NCBI GenBank assembly: GCA_965140415.1 | Contig: OZ223209.1 | Span: 2,976,001 to 3,040,000, forward strand | Origin: Myxococcota bacterium | Lineage (GTDB): Bacteria; Myxococcota_A; SURF-8 | Direction: 5' to 3' | Length of the DNA stretch: 64,000 bases | Position numbers and translations under genes: made by a program | The notes under the pieces: model-generated | What the model was told of the DNA's origin: nothing | Databases searched by the model: none | The model's input: the letters and a program-made list of their open reading frames with translations, nothing else | Part shown: piece after piece, positions 6,232-24,241 of the stretch | Numbering within the stretch: the first letter of the stretch is position 1 | Layout of the letters: each line of letters begins with the position of its first letter

Positions 6232-9200
6232 CTAGTTAGATAGGTCAGGCTCTAGTCCAATGATTGCTCGATTGTACGCGGTGTAAATACCGCCGAGATT
6301 GTCGATGTCGTAGTAGCCCCTGATACCACCAAATGCGTAATCTACATAGAATTCGTCGGCATCATTGTAGCCGTCACAGACCCACCAGTGACCATATACG
6401 CGACCTGATTCACCCGGGGCAGGACTGTCGGGGGTGCGTCCTACGACGACAATCGGGCGACCTGCATCCAGTTCGGCTTTAAATATATCGAACCATTCTT
6501 GCCTGGTATAGTTTTCTCGATAGACGATGGAGGCATTCTGACTGAACTTGAAGTAATTGACAAATGTGGAGGGCAGATCGCCTTCCGCACCGATGGCCCA
6601 AATATGGGTGTATTCTCCTACTGCTCCGCTCGCTGCAAACAGCTTTGCGGTTTCCTGGTATTCTGCTTCCGTGGCGTCCGGTGCTAGCGTGGCAGCCATC
6701 GCAGAATAGTCTAGATTCAGGTTTTCAAGATCCATATCCCAGTTGTTGCCCCAGTAATCGTTGAACTGAAGATGTCCTACCCCATTCGTCGGATACTGCC
6801 AGTAGTGAAGAATACGAGCGATGGAGGTTGGACCACAAGCGTTGCCGTAATGACCGTTCGGTCCGTCCACATCTTCGGGGTAATAGGCGTTGTACGGCCA
6901 AGTGAAGGTGTTCCATTGATTCTGGATGAGTGGCCCAACTACTGGCTCCGGAAGTGAAAGAGTGATGTCATCTGCCGAACGTGGATTCAGCCCATACTCG
7001 GAATAGTTGTAGTCTACAATGCCGATGATGGTGTCAAATTCATCGCCATTGGCTGGCGTTTCGTATCGGAACATGCCGTCGTCGATCTGGCAGGCACCCG
7101 ATCCGTCATCTACATACCATTGGTTGTAGCTGTCCGGTACCTGGGTAACACTTGCGTCTGCAACTTTTATCAACACCGATTCATAGGCTTCGGCATTGAC
7201 CGCTGATACAAGATCGCCGGTAGAAACAAGAGTCGGCTCGGGCAAGGAATTTCCTGAGCTTACAACTGAAACCGTTGCGTTGCTGATTTCGGTGAATCCA
7301 AAATATTCGACAATCAGTCCGGTTACGATTACTTCATCACCAAGCGCGGGGGATGTGTCTGCATTGTAAACGTACAGGCCATTGTAAGCACCGCCATCCG
7401 AGGAGGAAATGAAGAAATTGTTGCCATAACCGCTGAAATGGGTTGCCGTCACGATGCCGGTTGTTTGTACAACTTGGTCGAGAAGAGGGCTGGGGTAGGT
7501 GCCATCTCCGGCATCGGTGGTGTATTGGATGTCATAGATCGGCGTTGGACTTGTTTCTCCATCACCGTCGATATCACCATCTACCGTCCAGTCACAACGT
7601 TGTTCCTGTTGATTGCACACCTGGGTGCCATCGTCACAGCTTTCCACCACAGTGTTGTATCCGCATGCGTCGATGTAGAGCAGGTCATTGTTTTCGCACC
7701 AGACATTCGCTCCGGGAAGGCAGAAATCACCCGGTGTGCCGATATTGATGCAGTTGAAACTGTTGTCGCATTCGGACTGTTCCTGGCAGGGCTTCACACA
7801 TACTTTTCTGTCGATAATACTGATGTCTATACAGAAATGGTCCGGTGCGCAATCATCGGTTACTTCGCATTCACTGCATTGAGAACCGATCATCTCACAA
7901 CTTCGGGTTCCTGCATTGCAAGTTTCGGTGGCATCGTCGCAAGTTAAGAGCAACCTCTCTTTGCCACAGGTGTCGACACTATACATGTCATTATCGATAC
8001 AACTTGTTTGCTGGGTGGGGACACAATAGTTGCTCGGACCGCCGATGTCCTGACATGAAAAGTCTTCATCGCAATCAGATTGCTGTGTACAGCTTGCTAC
8101 GCAGAAATTGCCACTTCCATCTTGATAGCCGACACAGGCATGATTTGCAGCGCAATCAGTACTGTATTCGCAGAAATCACACTGTTGTCCCGACATATCA
8201 TCGCCGTCCGCTATATCTCCATCTACAATATCGCCATCGATAACATCACCGTCAACGGTGTCACCGTCAACAACAATATCTCCGTCTACGATATCTCCAT
8301 CCGAAACATCGCCGTCAACAATATCGCCATCAGTGAGATCACCGTCAGATATATCACCATCGGTCACATCGCCATCGATGACATCTCCGTCGGTAACATC
8401 TCCGTCAACAACAATGTCTCCATCTATCAACTCGTCGCCATCGACTGGATAATCACCGTCTACGACTATGTCGCCGTCTTCAACAGGGTTGAGTGAACGG
8501 ACGCAACGGATACGCATCAAATTATGATGATAGTAAGCCCGTAAGATGGCTGCGTTGAAGTTCAAGGACCAAGAGATGTTGTCCTCGGCCAGATTCGCCG
8601 ACCAATAACCCACGCAAGTGTCTTCGTCGATCAATGTGGTCGGCGCGTAGCAACCGGCATCTCCCGGACCCTGAAGAAACGTGCAGTTGTCACCGCAGGC
8701 ATCGTTGTCTTTGCACTGATTGGAAAGACAATCGCCTTCCTTAATGTTACAAGCGCCATCGAAGGCCATTGTATCGCAGCCGCGGACCAGAGTACGCAAC
8801 TCGCCGATACCAGGTAGACGCCAATCATCAAAATCGGCTAAGGAAAGTTCGGCGCAATAGGCAATCGCATCGCCATAATTCAGCGTATCGTCCGAGATAA
8901 TGCGCTGCCACATCAGTCCGTACGTCTCGTCGATCCAGATGTCGCCGAAATCCGCTTCTTCTTTATCGCCGTCAACCTCATCACCGTCGGTGACATCACC
9001 ATCAGTCACATCACCGTCAGTCACATCACCGTCAGTTACATCTCCGTCTGCGATATCACCATCAGCCACATCACCGTCAGTTACATCTCCGTCTGCGATA
9101 TCACCATCAGCCACATCACCGTCAGTTACATCTCCGTCAGTGATATCACCATCAGCCACATCACCGTCTGCGATATCACCATCAGCCACATCTCCGTCAG

Positions 9201-9312
9201 TTACATCTCCGTCGGTGACATCACCATCGGTTGTGTCTTCATCTGAACCACAGGCAGTCAATGTCAGAATTAGTAAAAGGAAGAAGAACATCAACGTTGA
9301 TCTACAGTGCAT
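6232..9312 (-). CDS. Multidomain lipoprotein: DGD repeats, DUF1566 (Lcl C-terminal), DGD repeats, Cys-rich repeats, OB-fold region, peptidase C10 (streptopain-like)
   Basis: Lipobox LTAC; GLMWQ..A.AYC..L....DWRLP...EL..YWS..RCVR (DUF1566); IYDIQ..SP...V..TGIVTA (OB-fold); PYN..P..ACGPT..A.ILHYW.YP and GHWWVCDGY (C10). Confidence 0.8.
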   Translation of the reverse strand: MHCRSTLMFFFLLLILTLTACGSDEDTTDGDVTDGDVTDGDVADGDIADGDVADGDITDGDVTDGDVADGDIADGDVTDGDVADGDIADGDVTDGDVTDGDVTDGDVTDGDEVDGDKEEADFGDIWIDETYGLMWQRIISDDTLNYGDAIAYCAELSLADFDDWRLPGIGELRTLVRGCDTMAFDGACNIKEGDCLSNQCKDNDACGDNCTFLQGPGDAGCYAPTTLIDEDTCVGYWSANLAEDNISWSLNFNAAILRAYYHHNLMRIRCVRSLNPVEDGDIVVDGDYPVDGDELIDGDIVVDGDVTDGDVIDGDVTDGDISDGDLTDGDIVDGDVSDGDIVDGDIVVDGDTVDGDVIDGDIVDGDIADGDDMSGQQCDFCEYSTDCAANHACVGYQDGSGNFCVASCTQQSDCDEDFSCQDIGGPSNYCVPTQQTSCIDNDMYSVDTCGKERLLLTCDDATETCNAGTRSCEMIGSQCSECEVTDDCAPDHFCIDISIIDRKVCVKPCQEQSECDNSFNCINIGTPGDFCLPGANVWCENNDLLYIDACGYNTVVESCDDGTQVCNQQEQRCDWTVDGDIDGDGETSPTPIYDIQYTTDAGDGTYPSPLLDQVVQTTGIVTATHFSGYGNNFFISSSDGGAYNGLYVYNADTSPALGDEVIVTGLIVEYFGFTEISNATVSVVSSGNSLPEPTLVSTGDLVSAVNAEAYESVLIKVADASVTQVPDSYNQWYVDDGSGACQIDDGMFRYETPANGDEFDTIIGIVDYNYSEYGLNPRSADDITLSLPEPVVGPLIQNQWNTFTWPYNAYYPEDVDGPNGHYGNACGPTSIARILHYWQYPTNGVGHLQFNDYWGNNWDMDLENLNLDYSAMAATLAPDATEAEYQETAKLFAASGAVGEYTHIWAIGAEGDLPSTFVNYFKFSQNASIVYRENYTRQEWFDIFKAELDAGRPIVVVGRTPDSPAPGESGRVYGHWWVCDGYNDADEFYVDYAFGGIRGYYDIDNLGGIYTAYNRAIIGLEPDLSN
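8200..8480 (-). repeat. Coding DGDxx repeat block 2 (about 17 copies)
   Basis: Translated DGDIVV/DGDVT/DGDIS/DGDLT arrays with a 15-18 nt period. Confidence 0.85.
8965..9231 (-). repeat. Coding 15-nt tandem repeat encoding DGD(V/I)(T/A), about 18 copies, with a 45-nt higher-order period
   Basis: Units such as tcaccgtcagttaca, tctccgtctgcgata and tcaccatcagccaca; a 45-nt unit repeats identically at about 9024-9113. Confidence 0.92.
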
Positions 9313-15435: not shown

Positions 15436-16499
15436 TCAAGAAAAGGGAAACTGCTTGATATATACATCCTGCTTAGAATACGGGATTTCGATGTCGGCCT
15501 TGTTCAGTTCCGTGTAAATCTTCGTCAATAATATGTCAATCACACGGCCTTTGAATACGGGTTGCTCGATCCAAACTCGTAGCTGAAAATCCAGCGCCGA
15601 ATCGCCAAAGGAAACGAATCGTACGGAAGGTTCCGGCTCTGGGCTGATATGCTCAATGTCCTGTGCGCAAACAAGAAGAATGCGCTTAACTTTGTCGGGG
15701 TCGCTGCCGTAAGCCACTGGAACCGGGATGCGCAGGCGCATCTTTTCAAAACGTCCGCCGGTTTCGTTTATAATCTTGCTATTGCCAATGACAGCATTGG
15801 AATCGTCACTTCGATATCGTCGCGGGTTAAGATGCGTGTCGAACGTAGACCGATCTGTGTAACTTTTCCCCGTTCGTTTCCTTTTTCCAAAATGATAAAA
15901 TCCCCGATCTTGTAGGGGCGGTCGGTGACGATGAACAATCCTGCGAAGAGGTTCGCCAGCGTATCTTTGGCAGCGAAACCAACGGCGATACCAACGATGC
16001 CGGCAGAAGCCAGCCAGCCAGTAACATCGATGTTCCAGGCAACAAGGGCGAAATAGGCGATGCCGCCAACGACAATGGTTTTTACCAGGATCTGAAATAA
16101 GGGCAGGGTGCTCGGTTGTATGAAGGTCGCCCGGTCGGAGACATTGCTCAGGATGGACAGCAACAGTTGGGCCAGCCTCATGATGGCAATGCCCCATATC
16201 AACACGGCCAGCGTTTTCAGAACGCCCATCGCAACGAACAATTCATGTTGTCCCGGATCGAGATCCAATAAGGCGTATCCCAGCCCGGAGAACAACACGG
16301 AAAGAAAGACCGGTCCGCCAAGAATCTGGAAAATCCGGTCGTCCAGATCGGTAGCGGTTTTACGCGTTAAAAGCTTTAATAGACCGTTAATGAAATACTT
16401 GAGAAACAGCGCCAGTACAAACGTAGCGAAAAGAATCGTGAGAAAACGCACTCCGGGGTGCGTTCCATAGGTTTCGATTAGCTGGTTGAGTTGCTCCAT
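15436..16499 (-). pseudogene. mscS: MscS-family mechanosensitive channel, split by a single-base deletion at about 15797-15800
   Basis: The N-terminal frame has GFAAKDTLAN..G....DRPYKIGD..IGLRSTRI..EVTIP. The continuation NAVIGNSKIINE..V.VAYGSD..F..FGDSALDF is in another frame, and the junction reads att-cc-aat. Confidence 0.75.
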
Positions 16500-16553
16500 T
16501 CCAACAGCTTCCTTTCAACAATATCATGATGCACGCAGTGTCGCGATCAAGCT

Positions 16554-17573
16554 TTACTTCATGGCTCCCGGTCCTTCATCCGGGAATTCCCCCGTTTGGT
16601 TATAGGCTCGTACCGCCGGTTCGAGCAGGTTGGGGAAATCGCTCTGCAATAGGAATACACCCGCCTCGATGAAATTCTTCCATCCGCTGTAATCGCCACC
16701 GATTACCAGAATATCTCCGGCGGCCATGACATCCTGCTGAACCTTCAGACCAGCCTGATTCAACTGCTGCACGAGTTCCGGCACAGGGCCGGGGGCGCTA
16801 ATTTCCACAATGCGAATACCCGGCAAAAGCTGACGGATTCCCTCTAATTCTTCAATTGAGGAAAGTGGGGCCATGACTTCGATCTGCTCGTCGTTGGCCA
16901 GCACCTCTGCCAGGCTGCTGGCACCATCGCGTACGAGAGCTACTTCGTAATACGGTCCAGCCGTAATCGCGGCGGCGACCAGATCCGAGCGGTCGGTCTT
17001 TTGATCGACGTACAACATGATGCCCACTTGTTTTGCAAGTGCAAGCGCATCTGCGAAAGTGGGGATCTTGCAGCTTTCGTCGCTACCCTCTTCGCAGTTT
17101 AGTAATGACAGGTCCTGTAACTGCGCCCAGCTCAGTTCATCCACGTACCCTGTGCCCGTTGTGGTGCGGTCCACGTCTCCATCATGCATCAGCACCAGTA
17201 TGTCGTCCTGCGTATGGCGCACGTCGATTTCGGCGAAATCGACACCGATTTCCGCTGCGGCTCGAATTGCAGCCAGCGAGTTTTCCGGCTGATGCACGTG
17301 ATAGCCTCTATGGGCGGTGACGAGCACCTGGTCGCATTCCGGGTCGATCATGCAGGCGTAAGGGGCCACCTTGTTCCATTCGTTTTCGCTCTCCTGTTCC
17401 AAGACCAGTTCGGAATCGAGATCGCCATCTATATCCGTATCTGAGGCGAGTTCTGTGTCGCCATCGGAAGAATCACTGTTCTCGTCACCGGAATCGCAAC
17501 CCGCGCAAAGCAGGAATGGGGTGATGCAGAAAAGCAAAATTGAGGATATGAAACGCAGGCTACAAAATGTCAT
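16554..17573 (-). CDS. Glycerophosphodiester phosphodiesterase family lipoprotein
   Basis: Lipobox CAGC; AHRG...PENSLAA, EIDV..T.D...VLMHD..VDRTT, IPT....L, SDFP. Confidence 0.85.
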   Translation of the reverse strand: MTFCSLRFISSILLFCITPFLLCAGCDSGDENSDSSDGDTELASDTDIDGDLDSELVLEQESENEWNKVAPYACMIDPECDQVLVTAHRGYHVHQPENSLAAIRAAAEIGVDFAEIDVRHTQDDILVLMHDGDVDRTTTGTGYVDELSWAQLQDLSLLNCEEGSDESCKIPTFADALALAKQVGIMLYVDQKTDRSDLVAAAITAGPYYEVALVRDGASSLAEVLANDEQIEVMAPLSSIEELEGIRQLLPGIRIVEISAPGPVPELVQQLNQAGLKVQQDVMAAGDILVIGGDYSGWKNFIEAGVFLLQSDFPNLLEPAVRAYNQTGEFPDEGPGAMK

Positions 17574-17999
17574 CTATCCATCTCCTGAAATGAAAGCCCC
17601 GTTCAGCATGGCTGAATGTAGGCGCCCATTATGCGACAGACCCTTTCGATTGACAAGAAAGATGTTGAGATCTTTGGAACAATTCTAAATTTTACAGAGG
17701 TTGTGATGCCAAGATGTTCGGAGGGTAGGTGGGTGAAAATGTTTGGTTTTATAAAGCCGGATATCGAATTGTTATGTCGCGAAGCATGGTCGCTCACTGC
17801 GTGACGGATTTTCCCGTAACATTTCGCCCTTTTCGCTAGAAAGTAGTTGCTTTCTGTTGCTGCTTGAGTACACTCTTCACGTTTCGCGGATTGCAGGTGA
17901 ATTCCTGCCGCGAATACAACGAAACGGCTGAAATGATGGCCATTTTCTCTTTCTTGTCGCGCGGTGTCCGCCGGGCGGCTGTTACCAAAGCGGATTGCG

Positions 18000-19949
18000 A
18001 TGACTGCACCTCTCGACTTCACATTCAAGCCATTCGAAGAAATGACCCCTGCCGATTATGAGGCCGTAGGGTTAATGAGCGGGCTGGAAATTCACCAGCA
18101 ACTCAAAACAAAACGAAAACTCTTCTGCCGTTGCCCTGCCGGGCGCTACTCGGAGCATATTGACGCGGAGATTCTGCGACACATGCGCCCTACGCTTTCC
18201 GAGTTAGGCGAGTACGACGGCACAGCGCTGATGGAATTTAAAACCAAAAAGGAGATTATTTATCTCCTAAACAACGAAACCGTCTGCACCTACGAAATGG
18301 ACGATGCGCCTCCGTTTGAAATCGACCCGGAGGCAGTGGATATTGCCATCGAAGTGGCTCTGCTTTTGAAGCTGAATACGGTCAGTGAATTGCATATCGC
18401 CAGAAAACAATATCTGGACGGTTCCATCCCGACCGGTTTTCAGCGAACGACGATTCTGGGAATCGACGGTGAAATCCCATACAAAGATCGGAAAATCGGC
18501 ATTATCCAACTCGGATTGGAAGAAGATAGCTGCCGAGAGGTTAGCGATCTGGGTCATACAATCACCTTCCGTACGGATCGCTTGGGTATGCCCTTGATCG
18601 AAACGGTCACCTATCCCGATATGAAAACGCCTCAGGAAGTAGCGGAAGTGGGCGAACTGCTGCGCCGATTGGTGCGCGCCACCGGTAAAGTGCGGCAAGG
18701 TGCAGGCGCTGCCAGACAGGATGTCAACGTCTCGATCAAAGGCGGAACCCGAATTGAAATCAAGGGGGTGCCTTCCCTGCGTCGCATTCCGCGACTGATC
18801 TACAACGAGGCCATGCGACAGCATAACCTGCTGAAAATACGAGATGAATTGCTGCGTCGCGGCATTACTGAAGAAAACCTGGATCATCGTTCGGCGGATA
18901 TTTCCGGTATCGTGCGCCGCACCAGCTATCTTCCCATTCAAAATGCGATTGAACGTGGGTTGGCAGTTGTGGCTGTAAAGCTAAAAGGATTTGGCGGAAT
19001 TCTGGCGCATCCCACCCAAGAACATACCTTCTTCGGGCAGGAGTTTTCGGATCGCGTCAAGGTTATTGCCTGTATGATGGAACATCCGAACATGCTGCAT
19101 TCCGACATGATGGACCCCGGCATCTCCCGAGGACAGTGGAATCGGATTCGCAAGAGATTGCAGGCAACTCCTGAAGACGCCATCGTGTGTGTATGGGGGT
19201 CCGAAGAGGATGTTGACACGGCAGTCAAAGAGATTGTCATCCGTGCACAGGATGCCACAAAGGGTGTTCCTTCCGAAACCCGCCAGGCTTTTCGCGATGG
19301 CACCAACGGTTTCGAGAGGATTCTTCCCGGAGCCGACCGTATGTATCCCGACACGGACGAACCTCCAATCGCGATCGACGATCGCAAGATTGCAATGATT
19401 CAAAGCGCGTTGCCGGAGTTGCCCTGGGATCGCGAAGATCGGTATATAAAGCAAGGGGTTGCAGAAAATGCCGCCCGCATGTTGGCTTATGGCGAGCTTT
19501 GTGTGTTGTTCGATGCCGTGCAGGGGCGTACCGGTTGCGACAACAAGCTTTTATCTTACACGATCCTTCATGTTGTGCGTCACTTCCTGAAAAAAGGAGC
19601 CTATCAGGGAAGACGACTGGAAGATGCTCTTTCCGAGTTGTTCCTGGCGATAAAGGAAAATCGCGTTCGAAGCGAAGCAATTCGCAGAATACTGACCGAC
19701 TATGCGACAAACGAAACGGAAAGTATGCAGGAATTGCTGGAACGCTACAGCATTACAGGATCGGAAGAAGAAGAGTTGACGCAATGGCTGCAAACCGCCA
19801 AGGAAGTTCAGGAGCAACTTTGGTCTGATGACAAGCAAGCCAGGCAGCGATATTCGATGGGACTGATCATGCATCGCATGCGAGGAAGAATCGATCCGAA
19901 TGTGGTTCAACAACGTCTGGAAACTGTGGTAGGTGCCGATCATGATTAG
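18000..19949 (+). CDS. gatE: Glu-tRNA(Gln) amidotransferase subunit E (archaeal GatDE type)
   Basis: GLEIHQQL..KLFCRC, RK..DGS..TGFQRT, LEED, DRLG.PLIE, RQDVNVSI.GG.RIEIKGV, an inserted GAD-like domain, P.ETR and PGA.RMYP.TD.PP. These are GatE rather than GatB signatures. ATG at 18000. Confidence 0.92.
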   Translation: MTAPLDFTFKPFEEMTPADYEAVGLMSGLEIHQQLKTKRKLFCRCPAGRYSEHIDAEILRHMRPTLSELGEYDGTALMEFKTKKEIIYLLNNETVCTYEMDDAPPFEIDPEAVDIAIEVALLLKLNTVSELHIARKQYLDGSIPTGFQRTTILGIDGEIPYKDRKIGIIQLGLEEDSCREVSDLGHTITFRTDRLGMPLIETVTYPDMKTPQEVAEVGELLRRLVRATGKVRQGAGAARQDVNVSIKGGTRIEIKGVPSLRRIPRLIYNEAMRQHNLLKIRDELLRRGITEENLDHRSADISGIVRRTSYLPIQNAIERGLAVVAVKLKGFGGILAHPTQEHTFFGQEFSDRVKVIACMMEHPNMLHSDMMDPGISRGQWNRIRKRLQATPEDAIVCVWGSEEDVDTAVKEIVIRAQDATKGVPSETRQAFRDGTNGFERILPGADRMYPDTDEPPIAIDDRKIAMIQSALPELPWDREDRYIKQGVAENAARMLAYGELCVLFDAVQGRTGCDNKLLSYTILHVVRHFLKKGAYQGRRLEDALSELFLAIKENRVRSEAIRRILTDYATNETESMQELLERYSITGSEEEELTQWLQTAKEVQEQLWSDDKQARQRYSMGLIMHRMRGRIDPNVVQQRLETVVGADHD

Positions 19950-21330
19950 TGAAGATGCATATAAAGGCTACCGTAACGCCGGAAAAGACAAACTGGTCGA
20001 GCAGGGCGTGGAAGTTTGGAGCGATGTGGAAGCCCAGACCGAACGCGGAATGTTCCGAGGAATCATTCTGCCGCGCTCGGAAACGGCGGACGATAAGCAC
20101 ATCGTGTTGAAATTGCAGACCGGCTACAACGTTGGGCTTCGTGCGGATAAAATTCTGTCAATGAAGCAGGTCGGTTATCGCGCTGCGAACTACAAAATCC
20201 CGGAAAAAGCGTTCCCGTTCGATCCCAAAAAACCGAAGGTCAAGCTTTTCGGTACTGGCGGCACCATCGCATCACGCTTGGATTATCGCACCGGTGCCGT
20301 GATTCCTGCTTTTTCTCCTGGCGAATTATACGGTTCCGTTCCGGAACTGGCCGATATCTGCAATCTGGAAACGGAAAAGCTGTTCGGTGTGTTCAGCGAA
20401 AACATGGGACCGGAGCAGTATATCGAAACCGCAAAAAACTGTGGCAAGGCAATCGAAGACGGCTACAGCGGCATCGTGATCGGTCATGGTACGGATACCA
20501 TGCATCACACCGCCGCCGTGTTAAGCTTCATGATTCAGGATTCACCGATTCCAATCGTGATGGTCGGCAGTCAGCGCAGTTCGGATCGTCCCAGTTCCGA
20601 TGCCGCCCGCAACCTGATTCACTCTGTTTATACTGCGGCACATTCGGACATCGCGGAAGTGATGGTCTGCATGTTCGGTCCCACGTCCGATCGCTACAAC
20701 CTGTTGCATCGCGGAACACGCGTTCGCAAGATGCACAGCAGTTACCGTTCGACTTTCCGCACGCTTTCCGATATTCCGTTGGCTCGCATTCAGGATCGCA
20801 AGATCGAGCACTTTACGGAAGATTATCGCAGGCGGCGCGATGACCGCACGGCAAAAATCACGCCGGTGTTCGATGACCGGGTGGCGATTGTCTACTACTA
20901 TCCGAACATGAAGCCGGATATCATCGAATCGCTAATCGATAACGGCTACAAGGGCATCGTAATTGCGGGAACGGGCTTGGGGCATGTCAACAAACCCTTG
21001 TACAGCGTACTTGAGAAAGCCTGCAAGAAAGACATCCACGTTTACATGACGGTGCAGACTCTCTATGGTTTCGTTCAAATGTACGTGTACGAGACCGGAC
21101 GTGAATTGATGCAGCTTGGAGTGGTTCCGGCTTCGAACATGCTGCCGGAAGTCGCTTATGTAAAACTGGGATGGGTGCTGGGGCAGACTCACGACCGCGC
21201 CGAGGTTCAGGAGATGATGCTGACTCCGATTTCGCGAGACATTACGGAACGTGAGCCGTACAACGGGTACACGATTTTACAGGGTGGCATTCCCGAAGTT
21301 GAAGCCGCTCTGCAAAAACTGTGGAAATAG
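19942..21330 (+). CDS. gatD: Glu-tRNA(Gln) amidotransferase subunit D (asparaginase-like glutaminase)
   Basis: N-terminal GatD domain (IVLKL.TGYNVG), TGGTIASRLDYRTGAV, HGTDTM, VGSQRSSDRPSSDA, RGTRVRKMHSS.R..F, GTGLGH, MLPEVAYVKL.WVLG. ATG 19942 overlaps the gatE stop. Confidence 0.93.
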   Translation: MISEDAYKGYRNAGKDKLVEQGVEVWSDVEAQTERGMFRGIILPRSETADDKHIVLKLQTGYNVGLRADKILSMKQVGYRAANYKIPEKAFPFDPKKPKVKLFGTGGTIASRLDYRTGAVIPAFSPGELYGSVPELADICNLETEKLFGVFSENMGPEQYIETAKNCGKAIEDGYSGIVIGHGTDTMHHTAAVLSFMIQDSPIPIVMVGSQRSSDRPSSDAARNLIHSVYTAAHSDIAEVMVCMFGPTSDRYNLLHRGTRVRKMHSSYRSTFRTLSDIPLARIQDRKIEHFTEDYRRRRDDRTAKITPVFDDRVAIVYYYPNMKPDIIESLIDNGYKGIVIAGTGLGHVNKPLYSVLEKACKKDIHVYMTVQTLYGFVQMYVYETGRELMQLGVVPASNMLPEVAYVKLGWVLGQTHDRAEVQEMMLTPISRDITEREPYNGYTILQGGIPEVEAALQKLWK

Positions 21331-21361
21331 GCTCTTGCCTCTCGCAATGCTATATACATAA

Positions 21362-21395
21362 AAAACGCTGACAGGAAATGAACTGTCGGCGTTTT
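21362..21395. terminator. Probable bidirectional terminator between gatD and the HAD gene
   Basis: Stem aaaacgctgacag/ctgtcggcgtttt (one G-U) between convergent genes. Confidence 0.65.
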
Positions 21396-21468
21396 GCGTT
21401 CTTTGGGGGCATGAAATATCTTGAGGCATCCTGGTGCTTCAGAAAACAGCAGTTGCACTCTGCAATTC

Positions 21469-21942
21469 CTATCGTCGTAGCGTGGCGATCAAACGCAATG
21501 GGTCCAGTAAACAATCCAAAGCGCATTCGATGGATTGAACCACCATGTCTCCTGCTATCAGAGCGCTTGTCGCGGCTCCTTCTTTTGCTCCAAGTACAAC
21601 GATACCCAATGAGGCTTCACGAAGCACCAACTCGTCATTCGCACCGTTGCCGAAGACGACGGTCCGCTCCGGCCCCAGTTTTCTTAAAATTTCGAGCTTG
21701 GCTTCTCGGGCAGGTCGATCAGCCGGGATGATGGTCAACGGCAGTCCTAGCTCTTCAGAAATCCGCTTTCCAGCACCGCGTGTGTCGCTTGTAACCAAGT
21801 GAAGCGATAATTTCTCGGAGAGCTGACGTACCTTGTCTTTTGTCACCTCGGTCAATTGGCCAAGATCGGCCAGCGTGCCGTTTAAATCGAAAAAGGCATG
21901 TGTTAGTTCAAGGGTTTTAAAGCCGGGGATGTCGATTTTCAT
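21469..21942 (-). CDS. HAD-family hydrolase, soluble P-type ATPase-like phosphatase
   Basis: MKIDIPG...L....FDLNGTLA..G, LVTSDTRG, K, FGNGANDELVL..A.LGI.V...EGA, DP.RL.ATLR. ATG 21942 has a GAGG RBS. Confidence 0.82.
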   Translation of the reverse strand: MKIDIPGFKTLELTHAFFDLNGTLADLGQLTEVTKDKVRQLSEKLSLHLVTSDTRGAGKRISEELGLPLTIIPADRPAREAKLEILRKLGPERTVVFGNGANDELVLREASLGIVVLGAKEGAATSALIAGDMVVQSIECALDCLLDPLRLIATLRR

Positions 21943-22234
21943 ATACGACCTCGCTTTATCATGCTTTACACTCGTACTGATCGTTTCAGCAGCGAATGAA
22001 TGATTGAGGAAGAGTTCACTATGAATGTACAAGGAATCGATAAAAGAATCAATTGGAATAGGAAACACATCTGTCTGTATCCAAATCTGGGTTGCTAGCA
22101 ATATGTAGTATTGATGGACAAAGAGCAGACGAAAAAAGCTTTCCGACAACCTTTATCCACAGTACAATTAAACCGAATTTAAAGTGCATCTGGGGGATAA
22201 GCGGTTGTTTTCCACTACTGATTAAGGACTTTTC

Positions 22235-24241
22235 ATGGATATCGAACTGTCAACATCGTTCTGTCATGTAAAGGAATTTCGAATCCTCATCAATGAAAAC
22301 AGGAAACAACTTCTGTCAGAAGATAGCCGTAGTTGGCTGAAAAGCCGGTATACGTCGTTGCAATCTATTTTGAAGGTGGAAAAAGAAGTATTGCTGACGT
22401 GGAAAGCCGTTCCGTTCTCTACGCCTCTTTCGTTTCCTGAATCACATAAGGAGCAATCTTTTTTCGGGACGTTATATTCGCGGATTCTGCTTTTGTGGAT
22501 TTCGTTGCAGTTGCTGTTTCTAACCAAAAGAGAAAAACAATATGAGGAAATCCGGTCGTTTTATTACTTTCTATTTACAATTCAACGATCGAAGAGTCTG
22601 TATCTGAAGGTCGTAGAGGAAGACCTGGCTGAATTGGCAGCAAAAGCGAAATCGTCAAAAGCAGATTTGCAACTGTTGAGTTTTCAGAAAACGAGCGTTT
22701 CTCCAGCAAAGCTCTCGGTAATCGTGGACTGGCTCGAACCACGTGCCTATAGCATACCGCTCTTTCGAGGACTATTTTTCCTGCAACCACGGGAAAAGAT
22801 CCGAGCAAAGAAGATTATCACTACGATCCAGGAAAAAATTGGGAACTTTTATAACGAACAGCATAAGGGGTTGCAGAATTTCCTGCAAACCAGTGCAGCT
22901 AATACGCAAAACTACCTTGGCACATTGCAAGCCTATGACTCGGAAGAAGATAAGCAGGATGAAAGCACTACGGCTGCCGCCAAAGCTCGTTCGGAAAGGC
23001 TGGTAGACTCTTTTGAACGCAATTTTTTGGTGAAATTGCAAGAAGTCCAGAAGGTTGTGGAATTTCGAATTGTTGAAACAATCGACACTGTCGTGTCGTT
23101 GCGTAACCGAACATGGATTAACGTTAAGCGCAAATTGTTGATTTCTGAAATGGATCGCGCCAGAAACTGGCGCAAGCAAATGAATGAGCGTGCTGACCGG
23201 TATTTTCAGGAAAAAGAAGAAAAGATCGGACTTTGGGTGAACGAGACTTTGAAGCCTGCAATGGGACTCACCCAGCGGGTGAGAATTCAATCGTCCGCTT
23301 CCAAATTGGATGAGCGCTGGCTTTCTCCACCGGATGCGCCTTCCGATTTAATCGATGTCATGCTGGACAGTCAAAATCCTTCTCTGATGATCGTACCTGA
23401 ACCGGTCGTTAGAATCCTTTCCGATCTGAGAGCGTATTACAAATCCAACCACTGCGGCAATCTGCTATATGTGACCGATCATCAGACCGGCTCGTTCGGA
23501 GTGCTCGGTTATCTGGTTCGTAAGGAATTCAAAGACGCCACATTCCGGGTTTATCGCCATCGAAAAACGATGCCCATTGCCCGTGTGGCGGATTTTTCGG
23601 AAGATGTCCTGTTGTTCGATGATTTCGAACGGTTGGTATACTTGAATGAGCGCCACATTCACCAGGCTCAAGCGCTGGTGCAACAGCTACTCAATTCAAA
23701 CAAATTAACGATCATTTCGGTACACCATGCCGTGGCGAAGCAGCTTCGTCTTGCCGTTCCCGGGTTCAATCGCTTCCTTTTCCAGATCGATTTCAGCAAG
23801 TATGAATTTGAAGCGTTCAAAAATATCATTTCAAGGCGTATGCTGGTAACTGGCTACCAATTTGAATACGATGATGAGAATGAGTTCTGGTCCAGACTGT
23901 ATCAAGCGAGTTCCGGCTTGCCTGGCGTAGGACTGCGTCTCTTTTTAAAATGCGTCAAGCAAGTGAACCGACAGACGATCACACTGCACTACGATCTGCC
24001 TGGAATGAAGGATTTGCTTTCCAGACTTTCGCTGGACGAGAAACTTCTACTGCGACGCATCTACATGCATCCTCAAGTTTCGGAAACCTTACTAGAGGAA
24101 GATGATTTTCCGAACTTCCGAACCTTGCTGGCTTCCATGAAGAACATGGGTATTCTTTTGGAAAATCAGAAACTCTATGAGATCAGGCCGGAAATTTTGG
24201 GGCAACTTCGGGATCACTTGGTCCAGTCGAATCTGCTATAA
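22235..24241 (+). CDS. Hypothetical protein with coiled-coil region and degenerate C-terminal P-loop NTPase-like fold
   Basis: 668-aa ORF with AAGGA RBS; Walker-B-like VLLFDDFE, SSGLPGV.L helix motif and a wHTH-like end; no canonical Walker A. Confidence 0.55.
   Translation: MDIELSTSFCHVKEFRILINENRKQLLSEDSRSWLKSRYTSLQSILKVEKEVLLTWKAVPFSTPLSFPESHKEQSFFGTLYSRILLLWISLQLLFLTKREKQYEEIRSFYYFLFTIQRSKSLYLKVVEEDLAELAAKAKSSKADLQLLSFQKTSVSPAKLSVIVDWLEPRAYSIPLFRGLFFLQPREKIRAKKIITTIQEKIGNFYNEQHKGLQNFLQTSAANTQNYLGTLQAYDSEEDKQDESTTAAAKARSERLVDSFERNFLVKLQEVQKVVEFRIVETIDTVVSLRNRTWINVKRKLLISEMDRARNWRKQMNERADRYFQEKEEKIGLWVNETLKPAMGLTQRVRIQSSASKLDERWLSPPDAPSDLIDVMLDSQNPSLMIVPEPVVRILSDLRAYYKSNHCGNLLYVTDHQTGSFGVLGYLVRKEFKDATFRVYRHRKTMPIARVADFSEDVLLFDDFERLVYLNERHIHQAQALVQQLLNSNKLTIISVHHAVAKQLRLAVPGFNRFLFQIDFSKYEFEAFKNIISRRMLVTGYQFEYDDENEFWSRLYQASSGLPGVGLRLFLKCVKQVNRQTITLHYDLPGMKDLLSRLSLDEKLLLRRIYMHPQVSETLLEEDDFPNFRTLLASMKNMGILLENQKLYEIRPEILGQLRDHLVQSNLL

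What the first reader, a model, noticed from the sequence alone, without database searches (positions are those of the whole stretch)
18000..21330. Complete archaeal-type GatDE tRNA-dependent amidotransferase operon (gatE-gatD) in a bacterial chromosome
Seen: two intact, overlapping genes carry the full GatE signature set (including the inserted GAD-like domain) and the GatD set (N-terminal domain plus asparaginase-type TGGTIAS / HGTDT / RKMH catalytic residues). They end in a terminator and sit among clearly bacterial genes. Established: GatDE is the textbook archaea-specific route to Gln-tRNA(Gln), whereas bacteria use GatCAB or GlnRS. Inference: this lineage acquired the archaeal transamidation module and either uses it in place of GatCAB/GlnRS, implying co-adapted tRNA(Gln) identity elements and a non-discriminating GluRS, or has repurposed it. 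GatD also has a C-terminal extension (EREPYNGY.ILQGG.PEVE), and the order is E before D. Similar bacterial homologues may already exist in databases, so the novelty is mainly functional.
Basis: partly seen in the sequence, partly recalled or inferred. Interest (0 to 1): 0.85.

Follow-up and report, generated by a model that had tools for sequence, protein, structure and literature searches.

The report
Bacterial GatDE operon alongside GlnRS
This bacterial chromosome carries an intact gene pair for GatDE, an enzyme that textbooks call archaea-only, but the pair belongs to a large bacterial branch already labelled in databases, and this genome can also charge glutamine and asparagine tRNAs directly, so why it keeps GatDE is unclear.

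Summary
Window 17964-19949 encodes GatE and 19933-21330 encodes GatD. Both score well above NCBI's GatE/GatD cut-offs, the genes overlap, and a hairpin terminator follows.

- **Host genome:** it is a single 5.98 Mb bacterial contig. gatA, gatB and gatC were not found, but GlnRS, AsnRS, one GluRS and one AspRS are present. GatDE therefore does not replace GlnRS.
- **No recent import:** composition is native and independent contigs span both flanks. All 10 genomes of the same order carry GatE.
- **A bacterial clade:** in a quick tree, bacterial GatE forms one well-supported clade. At least 585 species-level genomes hold a relative.
- **Clade traits:** the gene order is E then D, GatD has a conserved 22-residue C-terminal tail, and the GatE tail motif is remodelled.
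- **Common configuration:** of 28 GatDE genomes from other phyla, 25 had GlnRS, 27 had AsnRS and only 10 had GatA.

My best reading is a working tRNA-dependent amidotransferase that stands in for GatCAB, probably acting on Glu-tRNA(Gln). Its physiological role is unresolved. This scan has already found bacterial GatDE in more than ten other genomes, so this copy is an ordinary member. The open question concerns the whole family.

The parts
17964..19949 (+). gatE (661 aa from GTG 17964; alternative ATG start at 18000; stop TAG 19947-19949)
   Evidence: NF003107 567.6 bits and TIGR00134 478.9 bits, both over cut-off. Best solved relatives are P. abyssi GatE 1zq1_C (E 1.8e-113) and M. thermautotrophicus GatE 2d6f_C (E 6.7e-99). 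74 of 89 columns that are at least 90% conserved in archaeal rows are identical here.
18936..19223 (+). GAD-like (AspRS-type) insertion domain of GatE, residues 325-420
   Evidence: Pfam GAD, E 9e-5, 23.1 bits against a cut-off of 23.4, profile positions 1-94 of 95. It aligns without a break to both solved GatE chains.
19833..19862 (+). GatE tail-domain motif K-Q-A-R-Q-R-Y-S-M-G, at the place of the archaeal GXXAXGX motif
   Evidence: Alignment and counts. G(-7)/A(-4)/G(-2) occur in 21/22/15 of 39 archaeal rows but 2/4/0 of 58 bacterial rows. R/K(-4), R/K(-2) and an aromatic residue at (-1) occur in 37/33/34 of 58 bacterial rows.
19933..21330 (+). gatD (465 aa from GTG 19933; more likely ATG 19942, giving 462 aa); overlaps the end of gatE
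   Evidence: TIGR02153 504 bits and NF003217 500.9 bits, over cut-off. 1zq1_A E 9.7e-117 and 2d6f_A E 2e-114, against 7e-41 for the best plain asparaginase. Start context.
20020..20154 (+). GatD N-terminal domain (residues 30-74)
   Evidence: Pfam PF18195 GatD_N, 46.7 bits, cut-off 25.7.
21244..21327 (+). Bacterial-clade C-terminal tail of GatD (residues 438-465: T..REP.NGY.I.QGG.PEV...)
   Evidence: R440, E441, P442, N444, G445, Y446, I448, Q450, G451, G452, P454, E455 and V456 are at least 95% identical in 60 bacterial GatD. The alignments to the solved archaeal GatD chains stop at query residues 443 and 441, within 5 to 7 residues of those chains' ends. pLDDT is under 50 in the monomer model.
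21362..21405 (+). Terminator-like hairpin (13 pairs, 8-nt loop) with a T-rich tail

Best explanation
This is a functional two-gene operon, translationally coupled, that encodes a GatDE-type tRNA-dependent amidotransferase. It belongs to a large, single-origin bacterial branch of the family. GatD would release ammonia from glutamine or asparagine. GatE would activate, with ATP, the side-chain carboxyl of a mischarged aminoacyl-tRNA and then amidate it. These mechanistic steps are inferred from the solved archaeal enzymes and from the retained catalytic residues. In this Myxococcota-type genome GatCAB is missing while GlnRS and AsnRS are present. GatDE is therefore not the only route to Gln-tRNA(Gln). 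It most likely takes the place GatCAB holds in related genomes, as a second or safeguard route that turns Glu-tRNA(Gln), bearing the bacterial U1-A72 pair, into Gln-tRNA(Gln). Shown here: gene identity, intactness, strong conservation, residency in the lineage and the aaRS inventory. Inferred: the substrate and the physiological role.
For: Family scores are over cut-off for both subunits. 74 of 89 archaeal-conserved GatE columns are kept. The Thr/Thr-Asp/Lys motifs of GatD are invariant in 35 bacterial sequences. 243 of 465 GatD columns are at least 95% identical across 60 bacterial GatD. All tRNA-handling modules are kept: cradle, GAD-like insert and YqeY-type tail. GatE is over cut-off in 14 of 41 related genomes, including all 10 of the order, and GatD in 13 of those 14. 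Of the 41 relatives, 38 keep at least one amidotransferase although 33 have GlnRS and 37 have AsnRS. Five of the 14 GatE genomes (G000, G004, G008, G023, G028) lack GatA and GatB, against 3 of 27 genomes without GatE. This fits GatDE standing in for GatCAB. All six GatE genomes in which no GlnRS was found carry two GluRS copies, and in one of them (G070) neither GatA nor GatB was found, so GatDE would be its only route to Gln-tRNA. tRNA(Gln) has U1-A72 and a 7-nt D-loop, whereas tRNA(Glu) has G1-C72 and an 8-nt D-loop. These are the two features that PMC2811023 says amidotransferases read (passages).
Against: No substrate was shown. GlnRS makes the reaction dispensable on paper. The GluRS carries Arg at the position of T. 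thermophilus Arg358. From memory this marks discriminating enzymes, but three GlnRS-less control genomes carry Arg too, so the test says nothing either way. The archaeal GXXAXGX tail motif is absent and the archaeal A1-U72 identity pair is absent, so substrate choice may differ from the studied enzymes. G070 is a metagenome bin of unknown completeness. No RNA data were available.
Confidence: 0.55

Rival explanations
1. Bacterial GatDE, at least in this lineage, amidates Asp-tRNA(Asn), either alone or as well as Glu-tRNA(Gln). It would then do the job proposed for GatCAB in delta-proteobacteria that already have AsnRS and GlnRS.
For: The single AspRS has His and Gly where E. coli AspRS (1c0a) has Leu and Lys. 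It matches PDB chains named Asp/Asn ligase (4rmf, 5w25) at both positions. The meaning of these residues (His31/Gly83 of P. aeruginosa AspRS) is recalled from Bernard et al. 2006; I saw only its title, in a reference list. Among relatives, His is present in 4 of 5 GatDE-only genomes and in 0 of 3 genomes with no amidotransferase. tRNA(Asn) shares U1-A72 and a 7-nt D-loop with tRNA(Gln). [quoted passage not shown] PMC4206432 (passages) proposes Asn-tRNA formation as the reason delta-proteobacteria keep GatCAB.
Against: In other phyla only 1 of 17 GatDE-only genomes has His at that AspRS position; the rest have Leu, Met or Ile. Nine of 22 readable GatCAB-only relatives also lack His, so the signature follows lineage more than amidotransferase content. 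The genome has AsnRS and three AsnB-family genes. Archaeal GatDE is reported to be Glu-specific (PMC2811023 introduction). The samples are small and the genomes are related to one another.
Confidence: 0.2
2. The enzyme has been put to a use outside routine translation: a tRNA-dependent amidation feeding another pathway, or a role that only matters under nitrogen or amino-acid stress.
For: The pairing with complete direct charging is the rule rather than the exception. Of 28 GatDE genomes from other phyla, 25 have GlnRS, 27 have AsnRS and 10 have GatA over cut-off. It also occurs in at least three single-contig chromosomes: G000, G008 and G061. GatD is unusually conserved across phyla, at 69-73% identity to the window, and has an invariant tail absent from the solved archaeal chains.
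Against: No conserved neighbour hints at another pathway: across 88 loci, no other gene cluster recurs in more than 7. Every tRNA-binding module is kept. Nothing positive points to another substrate.
Confidence: 0.17
3. The operon is a redundant leftover that is no longer used.
For: GlnRS and AsnRS are present. PMC4206432 raises a vestigial role for GatCAB in similar genomes.
Against: Both frames are intact here and in 13 of 14 related GatE genomes; the fourteenth is cut by a contig end. 243 of 465 GatD columns are at least 95% identical in 60 sequences. The catalytic motifs are invariant.
Confidence: 0.06
4. The segment is an assembly chimera with archaeal DNA, or a very recent import.
For: None was found.
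Against: One 74,686-nt contig of run X1 spans 15500-23500 with no other letters. Run X2, from another sample, covers all 30 bins at 99% or better, including both operon borders. X1 may be the source sample of the assembly. GC is 52.27% against 52.36% for the genome, and the tetranucleotide distance sits at the 23rd percentile of genome windows. All 80 of the best relatives kept carry bacterial record titles.
Confidence: 0.02

Closest known systems
Archaeal GatDE (Methanothermobacter thermautotrophicus, PDB 2D6F with tRNA(Gln); Pyrococcus abyssi, PDB 1ZQ1)
   Same: Both subunits have the same domain order and align over their full length. The GatD catalytic motifs and 74 of 89 archaeal-conserved GatE columns are kept.
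   Different: The host is a bacterium that has GlnRS and AsnRS. The available tRNA(Gln) genes carry U1-A72. The GatE tail lacks the GXXAXGX motif. GatD has a conserved extra C-terminal tail of about 22 residues. The genes form a fixed E-then-D overlapping operon. GatE identity to representatives in the archaeal part of the tree is 30-38%, against 51-67% to the aligned bacterial GatE sequences.
The bacterial GatDE group as annotated in public databases and noted earlier in this scan
   Same: Same clade (100% SH-aLRT), same gene order, same GatD tail and same GatE tail motif. NCBI already names such proteins GatE, for example in a candidate division CSSED10-310 bacterium.
   Different: Nothing essential differs. 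This copy lies in a closed genome that lacks GatCAB, which makes the inventory unusually clean.
Bacterial GatCAB kept alongside AsnRS and GlnRS (Bdellovibrio, Deinococcus, Thermus, many delta-proteobacteria; PMC4206432)
   Same: It poses the same puzzle: a tRNA-dependent amidotransferase kept in a genome that can charge both amide tRNAs directly. In the relatives sampled here GatCAB is the usual enzyme and GatDE sometimes the only one.
   Different: The enzyme is different. The ammonia-releasing subunit is an asparaginase-type GatD rather than an amidase-type GatA, and there is no GatC. The window proteins fail all GatB models.

Membership tests
GatDE, subunit E (GatE) | Scores over the curated cut-off of the GatE equivalog models, and above the GatB models | tested here: met
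   NF003107 567.6 bits (cut-off 456) and TIGR00134 478.9 (cut-off 319.55). The best GatB model scores 176 against a cut-off of 338.
GatDE, subunit E (GatE) | Cradle (GatB_N) domain interrupted by an AspRS-like GAD insertion, followed by helical and YqeY-type tail domains | tested here: met
   GatB_N spans residues 39-475 with a large insert, and GatB_Yqey spans 524-653. GAD covers residues 325-420 with E 9e-5 and 23.1 bits, 0.3 bits under Pfam's cut-off but over the full profile length.
GatDE, subunit E (GatE) | GXXAXGX motif in the tail domain (PMC2811023, citing Sheppard and Soll 2008) | tested here: not met
   The window reads K-Q-A-R-Q-R-Y at that place. The motif's G, A and G are found in 2, 4 and 0 of 58 bacterial rows, against 21, 22 and 15 of 39 archaeal rows. 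The motif is therefore not universal in archaea either.
GatDE, subunit D (GatD) | GatD equivalog score over cut-off; GatD N-terminal domain plus an asparaginase fold with the Thr, Thr-Asp and Lys catalytic residues | tested here: met
   TIGR02153 504 bits (cut-off 324); GatD_N 46.7 bits. T108/T111, T187-D188 and K266 are invariant in 35 bacterial GatD and align with 1zq1_A and 2d6f_A. The catalytic role of these residues is recalled from the asparaginase and GatD literature.
GatDE holoenzyme | GatD and GatE form a complex | not tested
   This is only inferred, from the overlapping genes and from adjacent E-then-D genes on one strand in 66 of 88 loci.
GatDE holoenzyme | ATP-dependent amidation of Glu-tRNA(Gln), and not of Asp-tRNA(Asn) | not testable with these tools
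   This needs biochemistry.
GatDE holoenzyme | Substrate tRNA(Gln) with the archaeal A1-U72 first base pair | tested here: not met
   Both tRNA(Gln) genes (CUG and UUG) have U1-A72. That A1-U72 is the archaeal determinant is recalled (Oshikane 2006). PMC2811023 states only that the first base pair and the D-loop are read.
GatDE holoenzyme | The host lacks GlnRS, so GatDE is the only route to Gln-tRNA | tested here: not met
   glnS scores 761 bits (cut-off 425.8) at G000:C1:2610320-2611909.
GatCAB (GatB) | GatB equivalog score over cut-off, with GatA and GatC partners | tested here: not met
   All GatB models are under cut-off. In the genome gatA gave 0 matches, gatC gave 0 matches, and the gatB model matched only the GatE frame itself.
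Free-standing type I L-asparaginase | Asparaginase domains alone, with no GatD N-terminal domain and no GatE partner | tested here: not met
   TIGR00519 scores 375.3, lower than the GatD models. GatD_N is present and gatE is adjacent.

The most novel reading that the evidence does not exclude
Bacterial GatDE is not a transplanted archaeal Gln-tRNA pathway. It is a distinct, strongly conserved bacterial amidotransferase that lives mostly in genomes already able to charge tRNA(Gln) and tRNA(Asn) directly. Its remodelled GatE tail motif and its invariant GatD C-terminal tail would have retuned it to bacterial U1-A72 tRNAs. In lineages like this one, with no GatCAB and an AspRS showing the non-discriminating signature, it could act on Asp-tRNA(Asn) as well as Glu-tRNA(Gln). 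That would be an activity never reported for GatDE.
Probability: 0.2. Interest if true: 0.7.

Novelty: new member of a known kind. Interest (0 to 1): 0.42.

Why it matters
Reviews and primary papers in the searched library still state that GatDE occurs only in archaea. The genes are nevertheless present in at least 585 bacterial species-level genomes. This window adds a closed genome with a clean inventory: GatDE together with GlnRS and AsnRS, and no GatCAB. The small survey made here suggests this is the usual setting for bacterial GatDE. If so, the enzyme's role in bacteria cannot simply be copied from archaea. It would join the unsolved question of why many bacteria keep an amidotransferase they seem not to need. 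The conserved GatD tail and the altered GatE tail motif give concrete handles for experiments on how such enzymes select their tRNA.

Tried and rejected
1. **Division of labour between tRNA(Gln) isoacceptors.**
   - The idea: tRNA(Gln)CUG would be served by GluRS plus GatDE, and tRNA(Gln)UUG by GlnRS. The CUG tRNA has C2-G71, A73, a tRNA(Glu)-like D-stem and a 4-nt variable loop, and lies 18 nt before tRNA(Glu).
   - Result: dropped. The same tRNA type matched in 35 of 41 relatives, including G012, which has no amidotransferase.
2. **GluRS discriminating or not.**
   - The idea: use the Arg358-equivalent residue as a marker.
   - Result: uninformative. Three GlnRS-less control genomes also have Arg. 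A fourth control frame, and a few others, were mis-picked by my ORF chooser and left unread.
3. **AspRS His31 as a general marker linking GatDE to Asn-tRNA formation.**
   - Result: it holds in Myxococcota (4 of 5 GatDE-only genomes) but fails elsewhere (1 of 17).
4. **Conserved neighbours or linked tRNAs.**
   - Result: none. No other gene cluster occurs in more than 7 of 88 loci, and tRNAs lie in the flanks of only 3 of 88.
5. **Synteny with G001, G004 and G008 over about 8-10 kb on each side.**
   - Result: only gatE and gatD match.
6. **Complex prediction of the GatD tail (residues 420-465) with GatE.**
   - Result: no verdict.
7. **RNA evidence.**
   - Result: no RNA holder was listed.
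8. **Tree under the site-heterogeneous model.**
   - Result: it did not finish in two 300-s runs. The tree I report is a quick LG+G4 tree.
9. **Papers not held.**
   - Sheppard and Soll 2008 and Bernard et al. 2006 are not in the library.
   - Supplements are closed. Table S1 of PMC4206432, a survey of 547 genera, could not be checked for GatDE.
10. **Literature on bacterial GatDE.**
    - Result: four searches found no paper describing it.
Full report
**What is there.** The window holds two intact ORFs on the + strand: 17964..19949 (661 aa) and 19933..21330 (465 aa).
- The first scores 567.6 bits on NCBIfam NF003107 (GatE, cut-off 456) and 478.9 on TIGR00134 (cut-off 319.55). Every GatB model stays under its cut-off; the best is 176 against 338.
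- The second scores 504 bits on TIGR02153 (GatD, cut-off 324) and 500.9 on NF003217. The type I asparaginase subfamily model scores lower, at 375.3.
- Pfam finds GatB_N with a large insert, GatB_Yqey, both asparaginase domains and GatD_N.
- The insert matches the GAD profile over positions 1-94 of 95, with E 9e-5 and 23.1 bits, just under the 23.4 cut-off.
- The best solved relatives are the archaeal GatE and GatD chains of 1ZQ1 and 2D6F (E 1.8e-113 and 6.7e-99; 9.7e-117 and 2e-114). GatB chains (1.6e-27) and plain asparaginases (7e-41) are far weaker.
- The gatE stop TAG (19947-19949) overlaps the gatD start. ATG 19942 would give a 462-aa GatD, the usual length in relatives.
- A 13-pair hairpin with a T-rich tail follows at 21362-21395.

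**The host and its inventory.** The window lies at 2,976,001-3,040,000 of a genome held as one contig of 5,975,757 bases. It is 93.7% complete by marker genes.
- It has a bacterial 16S rRNA (1614.9 bits). The neighbours of the operon are ordinary bacterial genes: an AcrB-type pump, HlyD, MscS, GDPD, a HAD hydrolase and SecA.
- Same-family genomes carry submitter titles naming Myxococcales or Myxococcota.
- The gatB model matches only the GatE frame itself. gatA and gatC give no match.
- Present are GlnRS (761 bits, cut-off 425.8), AsnRS (483.5, cut-off 342.6), a single GluRS (576.6) and a single bacterial-type AspRS (767-837 bits).
- A further class II synthetase-like gene is EpmA.
- There are three AsnB-family genes, no AsnA, and two glutamine-synthetase-type genes.
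- There are 47 tRNA genes. Both tRNA(Gln) genes and tRNA(Asn) have U1-A72 and 7-nt D-loops. Both tRNA(Glu) genes and tRNA(Asp) have G1-C72 and longer D-loops (read by eye).

GatDE therefore does not replace GlnRS, and the tRNA(Gln) genes are bacterial in type.

**Not a chimera, not a recent import.**
- One 74,686-nt contig of a public run spans 15500-23500 with no differing letter. That run may be the source sample of the assembly. A run from a second sample covers all 30 bins at 99% or better, including both operon borders.
- The operon's GC content is 52.27% against 52.36% for the genome. Its tetranucleotide distance lies at the 23rd percentile of random genome windows.
- GatE is over cut-off in 14 of 41 related genomes: all 6 of the family, all 4 others of the order, and 4 of 31 from the rest of the phylum. 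GatD is over cut-off in 13 of these 14; in the fourteenth, GatE touches a contig end.
- GatE identity to G001, G004 and G008 is 63.5%, 62.4% and 55.3%. This tracks AspRS (67.4%, 68.0%, 59.4%) and GluRS (70.8% for G004, 60.4% for G008).
- The flanking genes are not shared with those three genomes over about 8-10 kb on each side, so the locus has moved within the lineage.

**A large bacterial clade.**
All 80 of the best loci kept carry bacterial titles: Myxococcota, Aminicenantes, Latescibacterota, KSB1, Calditrichota, Ignavibacteria, Kapabacteria, Chlorobi, Neomarinimicrobiota and others.
- A search of 1.84 billion cluster representatives gave 661 hits at E 1e-30 or better.
- A quick LG+G4 tree of 100 rows, rooted on three GatB sequences, puts all named bacterial sequences in one 58-row clade (SH-aLRT 100, stem length 0.31). 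The window sits inside a Myxococcota subclade (95) next to its family (99).
- Representatives I could label as archaeal (Thermoprotei, Parvarchaeota) lie in a separate 36-row clade. A Heimdallarchaeota representative is the nearest outside row (support 94, not starred) and an Odinarchaeota one is basal.
- The richer site-heterogeneous model did not finish, so the Asgard sister position is tentative.
- NCBI already names such bacterial proteins GatE.

**Clade-specific traits.**
- **Gene order.** E then D, adjacent on one strand, occurs in 66 of 88 loci, with one more locus holding an ORF in between. In the other 21 loci my crude ORF picker missed one or both genes. No other gene cluster recurs in more than 7 loci, and only 3 of 88 loci hold a tRNA in the flanks.
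- **GatD conservation.** 243 of 465 columns are at least 95% identical in 60 bacterial sequences. The window is 69-85% identical to 34 others from many phyla.
- **GatD tail.** Residues 438-456 (T..REP.NGY.I.QGG.PEV) are conserved across the clade. The alignments to the solved archaeal chains stop at query residues 441-443, within 5-7 residues of those chains' ends. In a monomer model (mean pLDDT 73.6) the tail has pLDDT under 50, as expected of a segment that folds on a partner.
[quoted passage not shown] The three motif residues occur in 21, 22 and 15 of 39 archaeal rows but in 2, 4 and 0 of 58 bacterial rows. The bacterial rows instead have R/K, R/K and an aromatic residue at 37, 33 and 34 of 58. 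The window reads KQARQRYSMG.
- **Overall retention.** 74 of 89 archaeal-conserved GatE columns are identical in the window.

**Where bacterial GatDE lives.**
- Among the 41 relatives, 33 have GlnRS over cut-off: 11 of 14 with GatE and 22 of 27 without. AsnRS is over cut-off in 37, and GatA in 29.
- Five of the 14 GatE genomes (G000, G004, G008, G023, G028) have no GatA or GatB. Only 3 of the 27 genomes without GatE (G012, G015, G021) have no amidotransferase at all.
- Of 28 further GatDE genomes from other phyla, 25 have GlnRS, 27 have AsnRS and 10 have GatA over cut-off. One more, G060, has a divergent GatA and GatB. Two of the 30 handles used in those calls were the same genomes as G006 and G008, so I left them out.
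- GatDE plus GlnRS plus AsnRS without GatCAB is thus the commonest setting in this sample. It occurs in at least three single-contig chromosomes: G000, G008 and G061.
- All six GatE genomes in which no GlnRS was found carry two GluRS copies. In one of them, G070, neither GatA nor GatB was found, which would leave GatDE as its only route to Gln-tRNA. G070 is a bin of unknown completeness.
- These genomes are related to one another and many are bins, so the counts are descriptive only.

**What it most likely does.** The retained catalytic and tRNA-handling parts, the very strong conservation, and the pattern that nearly every relative keeps one amidotransferase all argue for a working tRNA-dependent amidotransferase. 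Here it fills the place of GatCAB. PMC4206432 (passages) describes the same puzzle for GatCAB in delta-proteobacteria that have AsnRS and GlnRS. It offers a second route to Asn-tRNA, or a vestige, as possible answers.

I favour Glu-tRNA(Gln) as the substrate (0.55). This rests on family membership and on the link between missing GlnRS and doubled GluRS. Three attempts to narrow this down gave the following.
- **GluRS signature.** I could not show that the GluRS mischarges tRNA(Gln). It has Arg at the Arg358-equivalent position, but so do three GlnRS-less controls. That test is void.
- **Asp-tRNA(Asn) rival.** It has local support. The AspRS shares His and Gly with solved Asp/Asn ligases where E. 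coli has Leu and Lys. His is present in 4 of 5 GatDE-only relatives and in 0 of 3 relatives without an amidotransferase. However, only 1 of 17 GatDE-only genomes in other phyla has it. The meaning of these residues is recalled, not read.
- **Isoacceptor split.** This idea failed.

**Standing.** Four literature searches found no paper on bacterial GatDE, and papers I read in part still call it archaea-only. This scan has already reported bacterial GatDE in more than ten other genomes, with the same verdict of a resident, database-annotated bacterial clade. This window is therefore an ordinary member. What it adds is a closed genome with a clean inventory and a first small survey. That survey suggests the bacterial enzyme usually sits beside complete direct charging, which leaves its role open.

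Noticed in passing
window 15436-16499 (- strand): An MscS-type channel gene is split into two overlapping frames, 15768..16499 and 15436..16197. Contigs of two public runs both carry an extra G after 15798, so the split is probably an indel error in this assembly rather than a pseudogene.
   Followed up: partly
G000:C1:2610176-2612326 (outside the window; L004:1357-3504): The GlnRS is 716 aa long and carries a C-terminal tRNA_bind domain (PF01588, 89.8 bits). In other families of the phylum the GlnRS frame instead continues into a YqeY/GatB-tail-like stretch, seen as GatE-model hits just after glnS in G015, G020, G025, G030 and G035.
   Followed up: partly
G000:C1:2557453-2557619 (L111): tRNA(Gln)CUG lies 18 nt before tRNA(Glu)CUC and shares its D-stem (GUCU/GGAC) and 4-nt variable loop. 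A tRNA(Glu)CUC sits beside tRNA(Gln)CUG in most of the relatives' loci examined.
   Followed up: partly
window 22235-24241 (+): A 668-aa ORF just downstream of the operon region has no Pfam or NCBIfam match. It is followed by a second MscS-like gene.
   Followed up: no
window 6232-9312 (-): A 1025-aa protein combines an Lcl C-terminal domain with a peptidase C10 (streptopain-type) domain.
   Followed up: no
G049, G052, G055, G062, G066, G067 and the Aminicenantes genomes G050, G053-G059, G065, G069: In many GatDE-bearing genomes of Ignavibacteria, Chlorobi and Aminicenantes, gltX and glnS are direct neighbours, and in several asnS lies within a few kb (coordinates). In the Aminicenantes genomes the GluRS model matches only profile positions about 142-466.
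   Followed up: no
G019:C180:2206-7449: In one Myxococcota relative, glnS lies immediately beside gatE-gatD on the opposite strand.
   Followed up: no
G044 (Caldithrix bin, L020): GatDE is present, but AsnRS, GatA and GatB were not found, and the AspRS has His at the position recalled as marking non-discriminating enzymes. If the bin is complete, GatDE would have to make Asn-tRNA(Asn) there.
   Followed up: partly
G006 and G009 (same order): gatE and gatD lie on different contigs, far from each other, unlike the fused operon seen elsewhere.
   Followed up: no
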